A stretch of 20,000 nucleotides of DNA from an uncultured virus (IMG/VR IMGVR_UViG_3300017642_000077). Lineage: Duplodnaviria > Heunggongvirae > Uroviricota > Caudoviricetes. The first letter of the stretch is position 1. Every line of letters begins with the position of its first letter. Of this stretch, positions 3,876 through 18,226 are shown in pieces. Location of the stretch: the IMG/VR virus record IMGVR_UViG_3300017642_000077. One strand, 5' to 3'. The notes below the pieces were generated by a model. It was not told the DNA's origin. It did not search any database and saw nothing but the letters and a program-made list of their open reading frames with translations. A program made the position numbers and the translations under genes.

Positions 3876-3968
3876 GGAATATGTCTGCACCCACTGGGTG
3901 TTTAAGTCCTTGTGGTTCGTCCGCAAGGCCGCCGCGCAACGAAGAATGCAATCCCACGCGGCGTCAGG

Positions 3969-3997
3969 AAGCCCCGCCGACGCGGGGCTTTTCTTTT
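3969..3997 (+). terminator. Intrinsic terminator
   Basis: AAGCCCCGC-CGAC-GCGGGGCTT followed by TTCTTTT. Confidence 0.75.
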
Positions 3998-4023
3998 CCC
4001 GACCCATCCGCTATCCAATCAGC

Positions 4024-4449
4024 ATGAAGCACCACATCTACCTCGCCGGCCCCCTCTTCACCCACGCGGAACGCCAGTTTATGGCCTCTCTCCGCGACCG
4101 CTTGCGCCAGCTCACCCATGTCACCGTGACCTGGCCGGGCGACCTCTTTGACGATGCCCACCTTGCCTCCCTTGGTCCCAAGGCCAAACAGCACATCTTC
4201 GCCGGTTGCCGTGACGAGATCCACGCCGCCACGCACATAGTGGCCATCCTGGACGGCCCCCAGGTGGACGACGGCACGGCCTGGGAGATCGGCTACGCCT
4301 ACGCCCGGGGCCTGCCGGTTATCGGCCTGCGAACGGACTTTCGGCAGGCAGGCGACACTGCCCATTCGGTAGCAAACGCCATGATCGAGTGCTCGTGCGT
4401 GCATATCTACCGATCCGCTGATGAGCTTCTGGCCGCCCTGGCCGGATAG
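4024..4449 (+). CDS. Nucleoside 2-deoxyribosyltransferase (NDT/Rcl-like N-glycosidase) family protein
   Basis: Motifs IYLAGPLF and DGPQVDDGTAWEIGYAYARGLPVIGLRTDFR; 141 aa. Confidence 0.88.
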   Translation: MKHHIYLAGPLFTHAERQFMASLRDRLRQLTHVTVTWPGDLFDDAHLASLGPKAKQHIFAGCRDEIHAATHIVAILDGPQVDDGTAWEIGYAYARGLPVIGLRTDFRQAGDTAHSVANAMIECSCVHIYRSADELLAALAG

Positions 4450-4570: not shown

Positions 4571-4879
4571 CTCCTCAACGAGCAGCCACCCGCACCCCGC
4601 ACCGCTCCGGCCTAGGCCGAGGGGCAAGGGGACAGGTGGCGGGGCGAGAGGCCGGAACGCGACCGGAAATCCCTGCAACAGCAAGCGCCGCGAGGATGCA
4701 CGCCACGGGAGGGGATGGGAGCGGGACGGCCAGGAAGAGAGAAAAAGCCTTTTGATTGAAGAGAGTTGAGCGGCAGGAACAACGATCCATCAACCACATG
4801 CCCATCAAGCGGGCGGCCGGATCAAGGGGCATTAAGAGTGTCTCGGCCGGCAATAAAACGAAACCTTTTGGAGCATGAC

Positions 4880-5482
4880 ATGGAAATATTAAAACTTCAT
4901 TTTAAAAAGGACGCTAAAGGACGTTGGCTTGGATTGTTTAGATGTAAAAATTGTGGAGTAATTTATATTAGGGATTTAAGCGCTGGCAAAAAATCAAAAC
5001 AATGCAAAAAGTGCTATAAAAATGGAATAGCGAAATTAAATTACAAACTATATCACATTTGGCACTCTATGCGCGACAGGTGTTATAATAAAAATAATAA
5101 GAATGCTAAATATTACTACAAAAAAGGTATAAGACTATGCAAGGCGTGGAGAAAGTTTGAAAATTTTTTAGAGTGGGCAAATAAAAACGGTTGGAGACCA
5201 GGATTACAGGTTGACAGGATAGACAGCGAAAGGGGTTATTCCCCAGATAATTGTAGGCTGGTTACTAGTTTGATAAACATGCGAAATAGAAGTTGCTGTA
5301 AACTGTCTATTGAAAAGGCTGAAACAATCAGGCTCCTTCATGCTGAAGGAAAGACTTCTAAAGAAATTGCAAATGAATTTTGCATAAGCAGGGCGATGCT
5401 AAGTTATGTTTTGCATAATAGGTGTTGGTCGGTCGAGCCCCCTACGCAGCGAGCAACCAACTCAACCGTTGGAAACGGCTAG
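4880..5482 (+). CDS. Phage HNH-type (homing) endonuclease with N-terminal Cys motifs and C-terminal HTH
   Basis: LYHIWHSMRDRC...GIRLCKAW...FENF...QVDRIDSERGYSPDNCRLVT; CxxC...CxxC at the N-terminus; strongly AT-rich; GGAG RBS. Confidence 0.8.
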   Translation: MEILKLHFKKDAKGRWLGLFRCKNCGVIYIRDLSAGKKSKQCKKCYKNGIAKLNYKLYHIWHSMRDRCYNKNNKNAKYYYKKGIRLCKAWRKFENFLEWANKNGWRPGLQVDRIDSERGYSPDNCRLVTSLINMRNRSCCKLSIEKAETIRLLHAEGKTSKEIANEFCISRAMLSYVLHNRCWSVEPPTQRATNSTVGNG

Positions 5483-5586: not shown

Positions 5587-6639
5587 ATGGGAAAAGAAGA
5601 AGAAAACACTGTTGTTCGTGGGTTTAAGGGATTCTCCAAAGACTTTAAATGCCGAGACAAGCAATACGGAACGGACGAGACTTTCGAGGAAGAAGGCAAC
5701 ATCGAGCTTTGCAAGCATGGAATGCACTTTTGCGAATATCCGCTCGATGTTTTCGGATATTACGAACCAGGGTTAGGCAGCCGCTATTGCGAGGTGTCAA
5801 CTGACTGTGCTTCTCCGAAGGCGCAGGGGTCGGATTCAAAACGTGTGACCAGCCGGCTTTCGGTCGGTGTTGAGATCAGCATACCCGGGATCGTGCAGGC
5901 CGCCGTGAAGTATGTGTTGGAGCGCATCACATCCGAAAAAACAGAGTCCAACACGGGCGACCAGAGCGCGGCCACCAACACGGGCGACTACAGCGCGGCC
6001 ACCAACACGGGCAACCGGAGCGCGGCCACCAACACGGGCAACCGGAGCGTGGCCACCAACACGGGCGACTACAGCGCGGCCACCAACACGGGCGACTACA
6101 GCGCGGCCACCAACACGGGCGACTACAGCGCGGCCACCAACACGGGCGACTACAGCGCGGCCACCAACACGGGCAACCGGAGCGTGGCCACCAACACGGG
6201 CTACTACAGCGCGGCCACCAACACGGGCAACCGGAGCGTGGCCACCAACACGGGCGACTACAGCGCGGCCACCAACACGGGCGACTACAGCGCGGCCACC
6301 AACACGGGCTACCGGAGCGCGGCCACCAACACGGGCAACCGGAGCGCGGCCACCAACACGGGCGACCAGAGCGCGGCCACCAACACGGGCTACCGGAGCG
6401 CGGCCACCAACACGGGCTACCGGAGCGCGGCCAGTGTCGAGGGCGAGCAATCTGTAGCCATTTCCACAGGAGAAAATGGCCGAGTCAAAGGCGCTCTAGG
6501 CTGTGGGATTTGTTGCGTCGAGCGTGACGAGGACGACGGCCATATCGTCGCCATCAAAGCCGCCATCGTGGACGGCGAAATCGTCAAGGCCGACACATGG
6601 TATTCTGTTAAAAATGAAGAATTTGTCGAGGTTGAATAG
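5587..6639 (+). CDS. Phage repeat-containing protein (DUF7666-like N-terminal domain + 9-aa repeats)
   Basis: Strong RBS; GFKGFSKDFKCR...GMHFCEYPLDVFGYY N-terminus; 18 x NTGxxSAAT; C-terminus VDGEIVKADTWY. Confidence 0.85.
   Translation: MGKEEENTVVRGFKGFSKDFKCRDKQYGTDETFEEEGNIELCKHGMHFCEYPLDVFGYYEPGLGSRYCEVSTDCASPKAQGSDSKRVTSRLSVGVEISIPGIVQAAVKYVLERITSEKTESNTGDQSAATNTGDYSAATNTGNRSAATNTGNRSVATNTGDYSAATNTGDYSAATNTGDYSAATNTGDYSAATNTGNRSVATNTGYYSAATNTGNRSVATNTGDYSAATNTGDYSAATNTGYRSAATNTGNRSAATNTGDQSAATNTGYRSAATNTGYRSAASVEGEQSVAISTGENGRVKGALGCGICCVERDEDDGHIVAIKAAIVDGEIVKADTWYSVKNEEFVEVE
5950..6435 (+). repeat. Coding tandem repeat, 18 x 27 bp
   Basis: Unit AAC ACG GGC (G/A/T)AC (TAC/CGG/CAG) AGC G(C/T)G GCC ACC, counted directly. 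Confidence 0.97.
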
Positions 6640-6677
6640 CGAATTTCCGGCGGGGGATGCTGAGTCCCCCGCCACAA

Positions 6678-6807
6678 CTTGGGATTCGAGCGGGTGGCTG
6701 ACCATGACTCATATGGGGACATGTGGCACTGGGCCGCGAAATCCAGATTGCTGCAATGCAGCGTGGTCGCCCCGACTGCCCGGACAGCCACCCGTTTGAG
6801 GCTCAAG
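6678..6807 (+). ncRNA. Putative structured ncRNA (long closing helix, multibranch)
   Basis: TTCGAGCGGGTGGCTG (6685-6700) pairs with CAGCCACCCGTTTGAG (6785-6800) using G-U pairs; internal CTGG/CCAG and GCTGC/GCAGC stems. Confidence 0.45.
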
Positions 6808-6810
6808 CAT

Positions 6811-6893
6811 CCAGGGGACAAACAAGAGAGGAATCCAGGATGACCCTAGGCACTCTCCTGGAGGCGATGGTTAAAGTCCATCCCCCTGGTCCA
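6811..6893 (+). ncRNA. tRNA-like RNA (acceptor stem + T-arm + CCA, no D-stem)
   Basis: CCAGGGG/CCCCTGG 7 bp, discriminator T, CCA; T-arm GATGG-TTAAAGT-CCATC; central stem TCCAGGA/TCCTGGA. Confidence 0.6.
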
Positions 6894-6899
6894 AAATTT

Positions 6900-6977
6900 C
6901 GGGACGTAGCGCAGTCTGGTTAGCGCGCCTGCCTTGGGCGCAGGAGGCCGGGCGTTCAAATCGCCCCGTCCCGACCA
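6900..6977 (+). tRNA. trnP: tRNA-Pro (anticodon TGG)
   Basis: Acceptor CGGGACG/CGTCCCG, A73, CCA; D-arm GCGC/GCGC; anticodon arm CCTGC-CTTGGGC-GCAGG; T-arm GGGCG-TTCAAAT-CGCCC. Confidence 0.96.
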
Positions 6978-7057
6978 AATCTCCCTCTTGCGGTTTCCCC
7001 GACCGCCAACCCCAACCGGGCCGTCTCCGGTGAGACGGCCCAAACGCCAATCAACGC

Positions 7058-7198
7058 CCGCATGGTGCGCGGCGGAACAGGAGGTAGAGCACTGCTCACC
7101 CTGATAGAGGATTGGATTCCCGCAATCCATACATGGCCCGAGGATGGCGCAGCATCAAAGCGCATCCGGGGAGATGGTATCGAATACCACCCTGCGGA
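7058..7198 (+). ncRNA. Putative expanded tRNA-like / multibranch RNA
   Basis: Ends pair (CCGCATGGTG/CACCCTGCGG); T-arm-like TGGT-ATCGAAT-ACCA; D-loop-like GGTAGAGCA; three internal hairpins. Confidence 0.4.
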
Positions 7199-7248
7199 GT
7201 GACTGAGGCAGCAACACGAATAAACAACCAGAGATGTTAGGAGAAAGC

Positions 7249-7356
7249 ATGATCCGAGGACCGACCAGTCGCCGTACCGAAAAGAATATAGCCCTGGAGA
7301 GCATCAGCAAGATCATCATCGGCGCCCACGGCACCGCCCCCGGCAAGAACATCTAG
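7249..7356 (+). CDS. Micro-protein (35 aa)
   Basis: AGGAG RBS; MIRGPTSRRTEKNIALESISKIIIGAHGTAPGKNI; below the ORF-track length cutoff. Confidence 0.45.
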   Translation: MIRGPTSRRTEKNIALESISKIIIGAHGTAPGKNI

Positions 7357-7518
7357 ACCGGCGGCTTGGCCATCTGAAACGCCCCCCGCTACTTGGCTCA
7401 CGGGAGGCCTGAAACCACGCATGTAAAAACCAATAGGAGGCGCGAAGCAGATGACAAAAGAAAAGGGTTAGATATCCGGTGTGGCCCTGATGGTGCTGCA
7501 CTTTTACAGAGTGACCGT

Positions 7519-8641: not shown

Positions 8642-9484
8642 ATGAGTAATATCGAGGGGCGTCAACTCCCCACGCACGGCATCTACCCGAACATCTCCCA
8701 CGACGACTATCACGCCCACCCGGCGGTCTCGAAGTCCGGCCTGGATCGGCTGGAGCAAAGCCCGGCTCACTTCCGCGCCTATCTGGACGGCGAGGACAAG
8801 GACACCGACGCTAAGCGCATAGGCCGCCTGTGCCACATGGCCATCCTGGAACCGGCCCGATTTAAGACCGAGGCCGTGGTGCCCCCTGACATCAACCGCC
8901 GCACCAATGCCGGCAAGGCCGAGTGGGAGGAATGGCAGCGGTTGCATGTCGGTTGTGAGATCATCAAGGACCAAGCCGAGGCGGACCTGCTCCGGCGTAT
9001 TCAAGATTCCGTCCTCTCGCACAAAACGGCCGGGGCGTTCCTCTCCTACCAGGGCCAGGCCGAGGTCTCCGCATTCTGGACAGACCTGGAGAGCGGGGTT
9101 GCCTGCCGGTGTCGGCCGGACAAGGTGCTTGGGGGCGGCGTCATCATCGACCTCAAAAGCGCCCGAGACGCCAGCCCCAGGGGGTTCACCAAGGCCGTCG
9201 CCGACCATCGTTATCACGTCCAGCAGGCATTCTACCTGGATGGGTTCACAGCGGCCGGAGGCTACGCGGACACGTTTATTTTCGTGGCGTTTGAAAAAGA
9301 GCCGCCATTCGCCGTGTGCTGCCACCAGCTGCAACCGGAGGACGTGGAAGAGGGCCGGGCGGATTACAGACGCAATCTGGCCACCTTAGCCCGGTGCCGC
9401 GCCGAAAATAACTGGCCGTCCTACGCCGATGACATCGTACAAATTACCTTGCCCGCATGGGCGAGAAAGGAGTTTCGGATATGA
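8642..9484 (+). CDS. RecE/Exonuclease VIII-like PD-(D/E)XK nuclease
   Basis: GIYPNISHDDYHAHPAVSKSGLD...SPAHF; CRCRPDK...IIDLKS; YHVQQAFY; FIFVAFEKEPPF. Confidence 0.9.
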   Translation: MSNIEGRQLPTHGIYPNISHDDYHAHPAVSKSGLDRLEQSPAHFRAYLDGEDKDTDAKRIGRLCHMAILEPARFKTEAVVPPDINRRTNAGKAEWEEWQRLHVGCEIIKDQAEADLLRRIQDSVLSHKTAGAFLSYQGQAEVSAFWTDLESGVACRCRPDKVLGGGVIIDLKSARDASPRGFTKAVADHRYHVQQAFYLDGFTAAGGYADTFIFVAFEKEPPFAVCCHQLQPEDVEEGRADYRRNLATLARCRAENNWPSYADDIVQITLPAWARKEFRI

Positions 9485-10656
9485 GCGAAAGCTTGCCTGA
9501 TTTAAAGAAGGAATCGGCTGCGGCCTCTCCTGATGTGGTCCTCGGATTCGGAAACGCCGCCGGATTCGCCATGCTGCAACGGGCAGCCGGCCTATTGGCC
9601 AACTCCACGCTGGTCCCGGAAGCCTATCGGAAGTGGATCAAGGACAAGGACAACAAATACGGTCCTCTGGTCGAGAACGAAGCGGCCATTTCCAACTGTG
9701 TCATCGCCCTCAATATGGCCCAGCGTTTGGAAGCCGATCCAATCATGATCATGCAAAATCTGTATGTGGTCGAAGGCCGGCCTTCCTGGTCCTCGCAATT
9801 CATCATCGCCGCCCTGAACACTACGGGCCGTTTTTCTCCCTTGCGGTTTCAAATCAGCGAACCCGTGAAGAAGACGGTCCAGGTCACGACGGTGGATTGG
9901 GTCAACAAACAGAAGCAGGTGAAGAAGGAAAACATCGAAATCCAGGACCGGACCTGCATCGCATGGGCCGTTGAGAAGGAGACCGGAGAACGACTGGAGA
10001 GCCCGCCTATCTCCATCGAAATGGCCGCCAAGGAAGGATGGCTTACCAAGAAGGGGTCGAAGTGGCAGACCATGCCGGACCTCATGCTCCGCTACCGCGC
10101 CGCCACCCTGTTCGGACGACTCTATGCGCCTGAAAAACTGATGGGCCTGCAAACCGAGGACGAAAGTCGGGACATTTACGACCTTGAGCCGGCCAATGGT
10201 GGTTTTTCACTTCCCGAGACTACCCCAGCCGACCATACCGCCGACATCCTGAAGCGGGCTTCCCAGGGCCAGGAAGAGCCCTCCCAGTCGGTTGAACCCT
10301 CCACCAACGGTATCCGCAACAAGCCCACCAAGGCCGAGATGGAACAACGCCGCGAGGAGGCCAAGACCGCAATCCTGTCCGCCGGCCTGGACCTGGAAGG
10401 CGTCGAAAAGTCCCTCAACTCCTACGCTCAAAACTGGAACACCGCGCAGTGCCAGCGGGCCATGAAGATGGCTGAAGAGGCCCAGGAAGCCGCGAACGAG
10501 AACCCTGACGATGACCAGTCGGACGATGCCGCCCAAGCCGAAACTTCGGAAGAGCCTTTCGAATGCCCCAACAACAAAGGGCCGGTCCGCCTCTCCGTCG
10601 AGTGCGCCGCCTGCGACCAGATGGGCAAGTGTCCAATGACGGATGGGCAGGCCTAG
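9481..10656 (+). CDS. recT: RecT/Bet-like ssDNA annealing protein
   Basis: Coupled to the exonuclease; IALNMAQRL..PIMIMQNLYVVEGRPSWSSQFIIA and SKWQTMPDLMLRYRA motifs; acidic C-terminal tail ending in a Cys4 cluster. Confidence 0.75.
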   Translation: MSESLPDLKKESAAASPDVVLGFGNAAGFAMLQRAAGLLANSTLVPEAYRKWIKDKDNKYGPLVENEAAISNCVIALNMAQRLEADPIMIMQNLYVVEGRPSWSSQFIIAALNTTGRFSPLRFQISEPVKKTVQVTTVDWVNKQKQVKKENIEIQDRTCIAWAVEKETGERLESPPISIEMAAKEGWLTKKGSKWQTMPDLMLRYRAATLFGRLYAPEKLMGLQTEDESRDIYDLEPANGGFSLPETTPADHTADILKRASQGQEEPSQSVEPSTNGIRNKPTKAEMEQRREEAKTAILSAGLDLEGVEKSLNSYAQNWNTAQCQRAMKMAEEAQEAANENPDDDQSDDAAQAETSEEPFECPNNKGPVRLSVECAACDQMGKCPMTDGQA

Positions 10657-17857: not shown

Positions 17858-18226
17858 ATGTCGGATGAAGTGAAGCTGGAGCCTTGCCCGTTTTGTGGAT
17901 CGAAAGCGATACTCCGTGATTTTACTGATTTCGTGACTGTTTCCTGTCGAAAATGTGCAATGTCTGGACCATGCGACCCAACAAAACAAGGCGCCATCTC
18001 CGCCTGGAACGCATTACCCAGGGACCAGAAGTGGACCACCTACGACGGGAAGGAAGAGACGTTGCCGCCGTCCAATTCCGAAATTCTATTCTGCTTTGCT
18101 CGTGGTCCGGTGAAAAAGAAGTCTTACGCGAAGACCTATGAGGACAGGGAAGTCATCGTCCTGTCTATGTGGGACACAACCATAAAGACCGGAGATCGCT
18201 GGCTGCTCTGGCCGGAGGATAAATAA
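17858..18226 (+). CDS. Lar (restriction alleviation) family-like zinc protein with C-terminal extension
   Basis: KLEPCPFCGSKA...VSCRKC...AISAWN signature. Confidence 0.75.
   Translation: MSDEVKLEPCPFCGSKAILRDFTDFVTVSCRKCAMSGPCDPTKQGAISAWNALPRDQKWTTYDGKEETLPPSNSEILFCFARGPVKKKSYAKTYEDREVIVLSMWDTTIKTGDRWLLWPEDK

What the first reader, a model, noticed from the sequence alone, without database searches (positions are those of the whole stretch)
6811..6893. tRNA mimic with perfect acceptor stem, T-arm and CCA but no D-stem and a 15-nt 'anticodon' loop
Seen: a perfect 7-bp acceptor (CCAGGGG/CCCCTGG), U discriminator and encoded CCA, and a perfect 5-bp/7-nt T-arm (GATGG-TTAAAGT-CCATC). The D region is an unpaired A-rich 16-mer, and a 7-bp TCCAGGA/TCCTGGA stem closes a 15-nt loop. 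It ends 6 nt upstream of the true tRNA-Pro. Known: this layout (acceptor + T-arm, no D-stem) resembles the tRNA-like domain of tmRNA and RNase P substrates, but it lacks the G3-U70 Ala determinant. Inference: intact pairing argues for selection rather than decay. It could be a non-decoding decoy for anticodon nucleases, tRNA-modifying toxins or synthetases, or a processing guide.
Basis: partly seen in the sequence, partly recalled or inferred. Interest (0 to 1): 0.75.

Follow-up and report, generated by a model that had tools for sequence, protein, structure and literature searches.

The report
Non-decoding tRNA-derived gene in phage
A temperate phage carries, just before its proline tRNA gene, an 83-base gene that descends from a tRNA and keeps a tRNA's outer shape but can no longer read codons; it is most likely a worn-out tRNA copy that is still trimmed like a tRNA, and no evidence shows a new job.

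Summary
Window 6811-6893 has a 7-bp acceptor stem, a 5-bp/7-nt T-arm, U73-CCA and a 7-bp stem closing a 15-nt loop. All 19 pairs are Watson-Crick. It is not chance: the acceptor + T-arm + NCCA descriptor hit 11 distinct sequences in 790 kb, 10 of them ARAGORN tRNAs plus this element.

The 'no D-arm' reading needs correcting. A covariance model of the element finds ordinary tRNAs (Gln, Gly, Thr; up to 35.7 bits). The element matches a 75-nt tRNA segment for segment, and the only length difference is +8 nt in the anticodon loop. The D arm is present in length with its stem reduced to 2 of 4 pairs, and U8, G18 and C56 are changed.

ARAGORN and Rfam do not call it. It lies in a swappable cassette: the closest relative phage has tRNA-Thr/Ser/Ala in the same slot. 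The only copies found are near-identical strains, one with two SNPs, both in loops, so selection cannot be shown.

Best reading: a tRNA-derived, non-decoding array member, still processable, probably a relic or processing module. A selected decoy or scaffold is not excluded. My direct pattern scans of metagenome and genome collections were void because I mistyped the pattern.

The parts
6649..6673 (+). G+C-rich hairpin (10-bp stem, 5-nt loop) after the stop codon of the DUF7666 gene. It has no T-run, so it is not an intrinsic terminator.
   Evidence: Fold. Conserved in relative G001. No terminator-like site was called.
6678..6807 (+). Leader: a long hairpin with a 6-bp outer stem and a 15-bp inner stem, ending 3 nt before the element.
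   Evidence: -66 kcal/mol, z = -4.29. G001 has a hairpin with the same base but a different interior, abutting its first tRNA (z = -3.15). Strain SNPs 6687 C>T and 6797 T>C keep pairing (C-G becomes U-G; G-U becomes G-C).
6811..6817 (+). Acceptor stem, 5' strand (CCAGGGG).
   Evidence: Pairs 7/7 with 6883-6889. Folds.
6818..6833 (+). Positions 8-25 equivalent: a degenerate D arm (AC / AAAC / AAGAGAG / GAA, plus T6834).
   Evidence: Segment alignment with tRNA-Gln. The D-stem 3' strand GAAT is identical and the 5' strand is AAAC instead of GTTC, so 2 of 4 pairs remain.
6834..6862 (+). Anticodon-arm equivalent: a 5-bp stem (CAGGA/TCCTG) extended to 7 bp, closing the 15-nt loop TGACCCTAGGCACTC.
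   Evidence: The loop is 8 nt longer than canonical. No 7-nt remainder obtained by removing 8 contiguous bases has U at position 33 (worked by hand). Strain SNP 6852 A>G lies in the loop.
6863..6882 (+). Connector GGC and T-arm GATGG-TTAAAGT-CCATC.
   Evidence: The T-loop keeps T54, T55 and A58 but has A at position 56. Strain SNP 6877 T>C falls at T-loop position 60.
6883..6893 (+). Acceptor stem 3' strand (CCCCTGG), discriminator T, and encoded CCA.
   Evidence: Similarity to G001 resumes at 6891.
6894..6899 (+). A/T spacer AAATTT between the element and tRNA-Pro.
   Evidence: G001 has ATTTTT between its tRNA-Ala and tRNA-Pro.
6900..6977 (+). Canonical tRNA-Pro(TGG).
   Evidence: ARAGORN. 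Rfam RF00005, 67.1 bits.

Best explanation
The element is a gene derived from an ordinary tRNA that has lost the ability to decode. It sits as one module of a phage tRNA cassette in the early-left (cI to int) operon of a temperate phage.

Shown:
- It descends from a tRNA and has tRNA dimensions.
- It has no usable anticodon loop.
- Its D-stem is weakened.
- The elbow contacts are lost (U8, G18, C56 changed).

Inferred:
- It is co-transcribed with the leader hairpin and tRNA-Pro.
- Its intact 12-bp acceptor/T-arm minihelix and encoded CCA would let RNase P and the 3' trimming enzymes cut it out like a tRNA.
- By recalled identity rules it is not aminoacylated: C1-G72, A3-U70 and U73 match no set that works without an anticodon.
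- Its most likely role is passive. Either it is a relic of a once-working array member, or at most it is a cutting signal that separates the upstream message with its leader hairpin from tRNA-Pro, as t-elements do in plant mitochondria.
For: - Origin: covariance model R1, built from the element alone, finds canonical tRNAs in host-clade genomes. These are tRNA-Gln(CTG) at 35.7 bits (E = 4.7e-5), two tRNA-Thr, and a tRNA-Gly(GCC) with its aberrant neighbour at 32.9 and 35.6 bits.
- Geometry: all 13 non-loop segments have the same length as in the 75-nt tRNA-Gln, and the D-stem 3' strand is identical.
- The descriptor finds only tRNAs plus this element.
- It is a module of a cassette. It has an encoded CCA and a 6-nt A/T spacer, like the tRNAs of G001. 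G001 has Thr/Ser/Ala in the same slot between conserved flanks.
- Run X4 holds a window-type contig and also a joint that skips 6687-6896, the stretch that differs between the window and G001.
- Non-decoding: ARAGORN in standard, intron, relaxed, mitochondrial and tmRNA modes does not call it in register. Rfam gives no hit at E <= 10 even on a 100-nt stretch.
- No sign of purifying selection: the variant strain has 2 SNPs in the element's 83 nt, out of 4 differences across the 259-nt contig that holds it.
- There is no promoter-like site on the + strand and no terminator-like site on either strand in 6300-7500, which fits read-through transcription.
- Aberrant tRNA copies recur in such arrays: G612 'tRNA-???', and L053 and L086 'tRNA-???'.
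Against: - The lesions are not spread evenly. Every one of the 19 pairs in three helices is Watson-Crick, while the D region, position 8, the T-loop elbow positions and the anticodon loop carry many changes. Even decay would be expected to hit stems too. This is a post-hoc argument, and block replacements could also explain the pattern.
- The anticodon stem is lengthened by two perfect pairs rather than eroded.
- The 15-nt loop is not a simple 8-nt insertion into a canonical loop.
- Phages tend to lose useless DNA, yet the element is found in runs from several studies dated 2016 to 2025.
- tRNA-Pro alone could supply an RNase P site, so a cutting-signal role does not require the element.
- No RNA data were obtained.
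Confidence: 0.5

Rival explanations
1. It is a selected, non-decoding tRNA mimic. The tRNA body serves as a stable, self-processing scaffold that displays the extended stem and 15-nt loop. The loop acts as a decoy or binding site for a tRNA-targeting nuclease, a modification enzyme or another RNA-binding protein.
For: - 19 of 19 Watson-Crick pairs alongside heavy change elsewhere.
- The stem is extended to 7 bp.
- The T54-A58 pair and the CCA are kept.
- Both strain SNPs fall in loops, which has roughly a 0.29 chance on its own by my arithmetic.
- Earlier scan notes list other non-decoding tRNA look-alikes in phage tRNA arrays. These are unchecked leads.
Against: - No homologue beyond near-identical strains: searches found none, and searches found only ordinary tRNAs and chance matches.
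- No covariation is available.
- By my inspection of the tRNAs, the loop resembles no anticodon loop I saw, so it is a poor decoy for an anticodon nuclease.
- No antisense target.
- No tRNA-related protein among the 20 window ORFs scanned.
- The closest relative phage lacks it.
Confidence: 0.27
2. It is a functional but highly unusual decoding or aminoacylated tRNA, for example a suppressor that uses the CUA in the loop or a tRNA with a short intron.
For: - The loop contains CTA at 6846-6848.
- The acceptor, T-arm and CCA are intact.
Against: - No 7-nt loop with U33 can be derived from the 15-nt loop (by hand).
- ARAGORN with introns of 0-40 nt allowed does not call it.
- The elbow nucleotides U8, G18 and C56 are changed.
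- The acceptor matches no anticodon-independent identity set (recalled).
- Short tRNA introns are not known to me in bacteria or phages (recalled).
Confidence: 0.03
3. It is a DNA-level or coding feature rather than an RNA. Either it is a recombination or restriction-related site (four CCWGG and one CCTAGG in 83 bp), or it is the start of a 27-codon ORF (6840-6923) behind the Shine-Dalgarno-like GAGAGG at 6826-6831.
For: - The element is the densest CCWGG stretch in the window: 4 sites, the only cluster of that density.
- The ORF frame is open (6723-6923).
- The spacing between AGGA and ATG is 7 nt.
Against: - The CCWGG sites follow from two stems sharing the core CCAGG/CCTGG.
- The ORF runs 24 bases into tRNA-Pro, and its start codon is buried in the 7-bp stem.
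- The integrase gene and its likely att site are 12 kb away.
- The tRNA geometry explains every part.
Confidence: 0.03

Closest known systems
Canonical bacterial/phage tRNA (Rfam RF00005), in particular U73-type tRNAs of Acidobacteriota (tRNA-Gln CTG, tRNA-Gly GCC, tRNA-Thr)
   Same: - Same segment lengths throughout.
- 7-bp acceptor and 5-bp T-stem with a 7-nt T-loop keeping T54, T55 and A58.
- 5-nt variable region, U73 and an encoded CCA.
- Array position with a short A/T spacer.
   Different: - 15-nt loop instead of a 7-nt anticodon loop, with no U33.
- D-stem 2 of 4 pairs.
- A8, A at G18 and A56.
- Not detected by ARAGORN or the Rfam tRNA model.
tRNA pseudogenes / aberrant tRNA copies in tRNA arrays (e.g. 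the 'tRNA-???' beside tRNA-Gly in genome G612)
   Same: - tRNA-derived.
- Perfect stems together with a disabled anticodon loop.
- Sits next to a working tRNA.
   Different: - The G612 copy keeps a perfect D-stem and canonical T-loop, has a 6-nt loop and ends in CTA.
- This element has far more change in the D and elbow regions, a lengthened stem, and an intact CCA.
t-elements of plant mitochondria (Forner et al. 2007, PMC1920247; abstract read)
   Same: A tRNA-like structure next to transcript ends that would act as a cis-signal for RNase P or RNase Z. Here the element directly follows the leader hairpin at the end of the upstream message.
   Different: - Different domain of life.
- Cleavage here is inferred, not shown.
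- The neighbouring true tRNA could do the same job.
tRNA-like domain of tmRNA
   Same: Acceptor stem, T-arm, a weakly paired or unpaired D region, and a long helix in place of the anticodon stem.
   Different: - No G3-U70.
- No mRNA-like part or pseudoknots; the whole element is 83 nt.
- ARAGORN in tmRNA mode and the Rfam models do not call it.
YrlA bacterial/phage Y RNAs with a tRNA-like module (Chen et al. 2014, PMC4201824; passages read)
   Same: A non-coding RNA that mimics tRNA. Some are RNase P substrates when they have a 7-bp acceptor stem.
   Different: - YrlA keeps conserved D and T arms and lies next to a Ro60 gene.
- No such gene was found among the 20 ORFs scanned here.
- No Rfam match.

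Membership tests
Canonical tRNA (RF00005) | Detected by tRNA covariance model or ARAGORN | tested here: not met
   The Rfam gathering scan and the E <= 10 scans on 901-nt and 100-nt stretches list only tRNA-Pro. ARAGORN in 8 settings never calls it in register.
Canonical tRNA (RF00005) | 7-nt anticodon loop with U33 | tested here: not met
   The loop is 15 nt, and none of the 7-nt remainders has U at position 33 (by hand).
Canonical tRNA (RF00005) | 4-bp D-stem and elbow nucleotides (U8, G18-G19, C56) | tested here: not met
   D-stem 2 of 4 pairs. A at position 8, A at position 56, and the G18 equivalent is A.
Canonical tRNA (RF00005) | 7-bp acceptor, 5-bp T-stem with 7-nt T-loop (T54, T55, A58), discriminator plus CCA | tested here: met
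tRNA-derived pseudogene / degenerate array member | Demonstrable descent from a tRNA | tested here: met
   Model R1 hits canonical tRNAs at up to 35.7 bits. Segment lengths are equal.
tRNA-derived pseudogene / degenerate array member | No purifying selection on the sequence | tested here: inconclusive
   Only near-identical strains are available. There are 2 SNPs in 83 nt, both in loops.
tmRNA | G3-U70 pair, tag reading frame, pseudoknots | tested here: not met
   The 3-70 pair is A3-U70. The element is 83 nt in all. ARAGORN found no tmRNA and there is no Rfam match.
YrlA / Y RNA | Adjacent Ro60 (TROVE) gene; conserved D and T arms; Rfam model match | tested here: not met
   No TROVE hit among the 20 ORFs scanned. 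No Rfam match. The D arm is degenerate.
t-element-like processing signal | tRNA-like acceptor/T-arm structure placed at a transcript boundary | tested here: met
   It follows the leader hairpin by 3 nt. In G001 a true tRNA occupies that place.
t-element-like processing signal | Cleavage by RNase P / 3' processing in vivo | not testable with these tools
   No RNA library with usable cover. The one 'RNA?' run is probably DNA and did not cover 6821-6888.

The most novel reading that the evidence does not exclude
The element is one instance of a wider, undescribed habit of phages: keeping non-decoding tRNA look-alikes inside their tRNA arrays. In this reading the tRNA body gives free processing and stability, and the rebuilt anticodon arm (here 7 bp plus a 15-nt loop with a central CCUAGG) is the working part, for example a decoy or binding site for a host tRNA-directed defence or for a phage protein.
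Probability: 0.25. Interest if true: 0.7.

Novelty: new member of a known kind. Interest (0 to 1): 0.33.

Why it matters
If it is a relic, it matters mainly for annotation. tRNA finders miss such genes, and it illustrates how phage tRNA cassettes turn over, since two alleles of the slot appear to coexist in one community. If it is selected, it would add to the hints that phages keep tRNA-shaped RNAs for purposes other than decoding. That bears on the open question of why phages carry tRNA genes and how they deal with tRNA-targeting defences.

Tried and rejected
**Void searches**
- The gapped pattern I sent to metagenome contigs and genome contigs was mistyped, with two instead of three free bases after the T-loop. 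It could not match even the window, so those zero results mean nothing.
- The caps then prevented a corrected scan of those two collections. The corrected pattern was run on viral contigs only, with 0 hits.

**Sequence and model searches for the element**

| Search | Result |
|---|---|
| Exact 28-mer in viral contigs | 0 hits |
| Stem-loop pattern in viral contigs | 0 hits |
| blastn of the 95-nt stretch against 50,697 phage records at E <= 10 | no match |
| 901-nt stretch against the same phage records | 112 records, all listed rows matching only the tRNA-Pro part |
| Whole window by megablast | no match |
| blastn-short against 93 loci | nothing beyond 11-15-nt words |
| Model R1 over 98 of the 118 sources then held (654 kb) | only the window and L098 |
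| R1 on G001 | nothing |
| BLAST of leader + element in 401 family genomes | 3 genomes, fragments of 23-30 nt |
| BLAST of leader + element in 401 order genomes | 5 genomes, fragments of 27-32 nt |

**Synteny**
- Anchoring on DUF7666 (80 loci kept of 417 relatives) and on the RecE-like protein (9 loci) gave no homologue. Apart from the G001 region, only 4 loci held any tRNA.
- The RecE-like protein matched 1 of 401 family genomes, at 40% identity.

**R1 hits judged not to be homologues**
- L121 and L133 lie inside ORFs, so they are chance resemblances.
- L123's 63-nt match is part of a tRNA-Leu.

**Other tests**
- Antisense target of the loop: none in the window beyond itself, and no more than the reversed-pattern control in 4 host-clade genomes.
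- RNA evidence: no RNA holder listed. The 'RNA?' run X13 is probably DNA and gave no cover of 6821-6888.
- Literature: two searches found no description of such an element. The AcrIIIA1 paper (PMC11662646; passages read) concerns host tRNA fragments, not a phage tRNA-like gene. The eLife paper on phage tRNA loop mutations (PMC10264068; one passage read) concerns working tRNAs.
- Earlier-findings look-ups by place and by sequence were empty.

Full report
**The observation**

Window 6811-6893 reads as follows:

| Part | Sequence |
|---|---|
| Acceptor 5' strand | CCAGGGG |
| D region | ACAAACAAGAGAGGAA |
| Long stem 5' strand | TCCAGGA |
| Loop | TGACCCTAGGCACTC |
| Long stem 3' strand | TCCTGGA |
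| Connector | GGC |
| T-arm | GATGG / TTAAAGT / CCATC |
| Acceptor 3' strand | CCCCTGG |
| Discriminator and 3' end | T, CCA |

- Six bases later, tRNA-Pro(TGG) begins (6900-6977; ARAGORN; Rfam 67.1 bits).
- All 19 base pairs are Watson-Crick.
- The lone-strand fold gives the three helices: -31.6 kcal/mol, z = -1.94, with 4 of 200 shuffles folding as well.
- I estimated the chance rate with a strict descriptor: 7/7 acceptor, adjacent 5/5 T-stem, TTNNA T-loop, N-CCA. It was run over all DNA then held, 141 records and 789,698 bases on both strands, with L137 left out because its genome is flagged unpublished.
- The descriptor found 11 distinct sequences. Ten are ARAGORN tRNAs and the eleventh is this element. 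The structure is real and is not a chance find.

**What the finders say**

- ARAGORN does not call the element in standard mode, with introns allowed, at relaxed thresholds, or in mitochondrial or tmRNA modes. At an 80% threshold it reports only an off-register 'tRNA-???'.
- Rfam lists nothing for it at gathering thresholds.
- Rfam also lists nothing at E <= 10 on 901 bases. At E <= 10 on 100 bases only noise hits appear, and none is from a tRNA, tmRNA or Y-RNA family.

**What it descends from**

I built covariance model R1 from the element and its stated structure.

- In 151 genomes of the likely host family, 4 had a match at E <= 1:
  - tRNA-Gln(CTG), 35.7 bits, E = 4.7e-5.
  - Two tRNA-Thr.
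  - One 20.7-bit match inside a 355-aa ORF, which I discard.
- In 151 genomes sampled across the phylum, 10 had a match at E <= 0.1. One of them is the unpublished G639, whose locus I did not examine.
- The best phylum-level hits are a tandem pair in G612:
  - A tRNA-Gly(GCC) with acceptor CCTGGAG/CTCCAGG, U73 and CCA (32.9 bits).
  - An aberrant neighbour with acceptor CCTGGGG/CCCCAGG, U73, a 6-nt loop and a CTA end (35.6 bits). ARAGORN labels it 'tRNA-???'.
Three had no ARAGORN call, and one of those three (L133) lies in an ORF.

Laid against the 75-nt tRNA-Gln, every segment of the element has the same length except the anticodon loop, which is 15 nt against 7.

- The D-stem 3' strand GAAT is identical. 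The 5' strand is AAAC instead of GTTC.
- Pairs 10-25 (A-U) and 13-22 (C-G) can therefore still form, while 11-24 and 12-23 are A·A mismatches.
- Position 8 is A, the T-loop has A at position 56, and the G18 equivalent is A. The contacts that build the tRNA elbow are gone.
It is a canonical-length D arm, a 5-bp anticodon stem lengthened by pairs 26-44 and 25-45, and a 5-nt variable region.
- Removing any 8 contiguous bases from the loop never leaves a loop with U33 (by hand). The loop is therefore not one simple insertion.
- The isotype of origin is ambiguous. It could be Gln-, Gly-, Cys- or Thr-like, all of the U73 type.

**Where it sits**

The window is the early-left region of a temperate phage, with all genes on the + strand:

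| Gene | Coordinates |
|---|---|
| cI-like repressor | 2089-2925 |
| Nucleoside deoxyribosyltransferase | 3898-4449 |
| HNH endonuclease | 4766-5482 |
| DUF7666 protein | 5587-6639 |
| RNA region (this finding) | 6649-6977 |
| RecE-like nuclease | 8642-9484 |
| RecT | 9457-10656 |
| Lar | 17858-18226 |
| Integrase | 18819 onward |

- There is no promoter-like site on the + strand and no terminator-like site on either strand in 6300-7500. This fits read-through transcription.
- The nearest held relative, G001, shares 65% of the window's sampled words. It matches 6640-6686 at 96% and 6891-7100 at 99%.
- Between those flanks G001 carries a different leader interior followed by tRNA-Thr(TGT), tRNA-Ser(TGA) and tRNA-Ala(TGC), then the same tRNA-Pro.
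- The slot is therefore a swappable cassette whose right boundary is the CCA of the preceding module.
- G001 has no copy of the element elsewhere.
- Run X4 holds a window-type contig and also a joint that skips 6687-6896, the stretch that differs between the two cassettes. The two alleles probably coexist in one community.

**Other copies and variation**

- L098, a metagenome contig, is 99.88% identical to the window over 3,316 bases and carries the element unchanged.
- One search listed 20 rows from 12 studies (bioreactor, wastewater, sludge and others) that hold the 461-base stretch or part of it. Ten rows hold half or more of its words, and three may be the source sample.
- I laid four runs. 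X4 and X8 hold the element without differences.
- An X9 contig (259 nt, 6760-7018) carries 6852 A>G in the big loop and 6877 T>C at T-loop position 60, plus 6797 T>C in the leader.
- Two SNPs in loops have about a 0.29 chance by position alone (45 of 83 bases are unpaired; my arithmetic).
- The element's SNP density is no lower than that of its flanks.
- No covariation test is possible.

**Searches for more distant homologues**

All the valid searches were negative. The list is under Tried and rejected. That is the main gap in this report.

**How it most likely works**

Shown:
- It is tRNA-derived.
- It cannot decode.
- It is one module of a tRNA cassette.

Inferred:
- It is transcribed with the operon and cut out by RNase P and the 3' trimming enzymes.
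- The acceptor/T-arm minihelix and the CCA are intact.
- By recalled identity rules it would not be charged.

Relic or selected RNA: the two readings are close, and I lean towards the first.

For a relic or passive processing module:
- The slot turns over.
- The element has no relatives.
- Aberrant tRNA copies recur in arrays.
- The G612 example shows that perfect stems can coexist with disabling lesions.

For a selected RNA:
- The lesions avoid all 38 stem positions.
- The anticodon stem is lengthened.
- The T54-A58 pair and the CCA are kept.

Block replacement of the D region and of the loop could also produce the uneven pattern. I put relic or passive processing module at 0.5 and a selected mimic at about 0.27.

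**Comparison with known kinds**

- It works like, and probably is, a degenerate tRNA. It fails the tests for a canonical tRNA.
- It resembles the tmRNA tRNA-like domain only in outline, and it fails G3-U70 and everything else that defines tmRNA.
- It is not a YrlA Y RNA. There is no Ro60 neighbour among the 20 ORFs scanned, the D arm is degenerate, and there is no Rfam match.
- The closest functional analogy is the t-element of plant mitochondria, a tRNA-like cis-signal for RNase P or RNase Z at transcript ends (PMC1920247, abstract).
- Earlier notes of this scan describe other non-decoding tRNA look-alikes in phage tRNA arrays. I did not check them, and they are leads only.

**Verdict**

The element is a new member of a known kind (tRNA-derived, non-decoding array members) and is of modest interest unless more distant copies show selection.

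Noticed in passing
window 6678-6807; L001 1161-1257: A long, very stable leader hairpin directly precedes the first tRNA(-like) module in both phages (z = -4.29 and -3.15). The base of the stem is conserved (CTTGGGATT / GAGnCTCAAGC) but the interior is entirely different. Strain SNPs 6687 C>T and 6797 T>C keep pairing. It may be a 3' stabiliser of the upstream message released by RNase P, or an RNA of its own. No Rfam match.
   Followed up: partly
window 6687-6890 versus L001 about 1170-1500; run X4: The tRNA slot is a cassette with at least two alleles: leader + element, or another leader + tRNA-Thr/Ser/Ala. Run X4 holds a window-type contig and a joint skipping 6687-6896. An X9 contig leaves the window sequence after 6801, which hints at a third variant.
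   Followed up: partly
window 6900-6977; L094, L096, L097, L099-L103, L105, L108, L110: The 3' part of the phage tRNA-Pro occurs as orphan 3' fragments. Most start at the anticodon-loop CTTGGGCGCAGG motif, and L108 and L101 hold shorter pieces. Where upstream sequence is present it is unrelated. Most are followed by similar flanks (CCAATAGAATCA..., CCAATGGA...). They are found in soil and peat metagenome contigs and in two Bryobacteraceae genomes. Genome G002 has a full tRNA-Pro 91% identical to the phage's. These look like attachment-site remnants of other integrated elements and suggest a Bryobacteraceae-like host.
   Followed up: partly
L131 1501-1658 (minus strand), genome G612: A tandem pair 8 nt apart: tRNA-Gly(GCC) with an unusual C1-G72/C2-G71 acceptor, and an aberrant tRNA with a 6-nt loop containing GCA, U73 and a CTA 3' end. 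The neighbouring ORFs have no Pfam or PHROG match.
   Followed up: partly
window 6826-6923: A Shine-Dalgarno-like GAGAGG sits 8 nt before an ATG at 6840 that opens a 27-codon frame running into tRNA-Pro. I judge it spurious but did not test it.
   Followed up: no
window 6811-6889: Both long stems share the core CCAGG/CCTGG. This gives four CCWGG sites in 83 nt, the densest stretch in the window. It also allows an alternative 9-bp pairing of 6807-6815 with 6857-6865, with one mismatch, seen through a noise hit.
   Followed up: partly
L132 1501-1572 (minus strand), genome G737: A 72-nt tRNA-shaped sequence ending in TCCA, with a good T-arm, that ARAGORN does not call (29.2 bits with R1). It may be another aberrant tRNA.
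   Followed up: no
window 5587-6639: The DUF7666 protein just upstream of the RNA region is very common in viral contigs (417 relatives confirmed, 80 kept). In the loci examined it is not linked to tRNA genes.
   Followed up: partly
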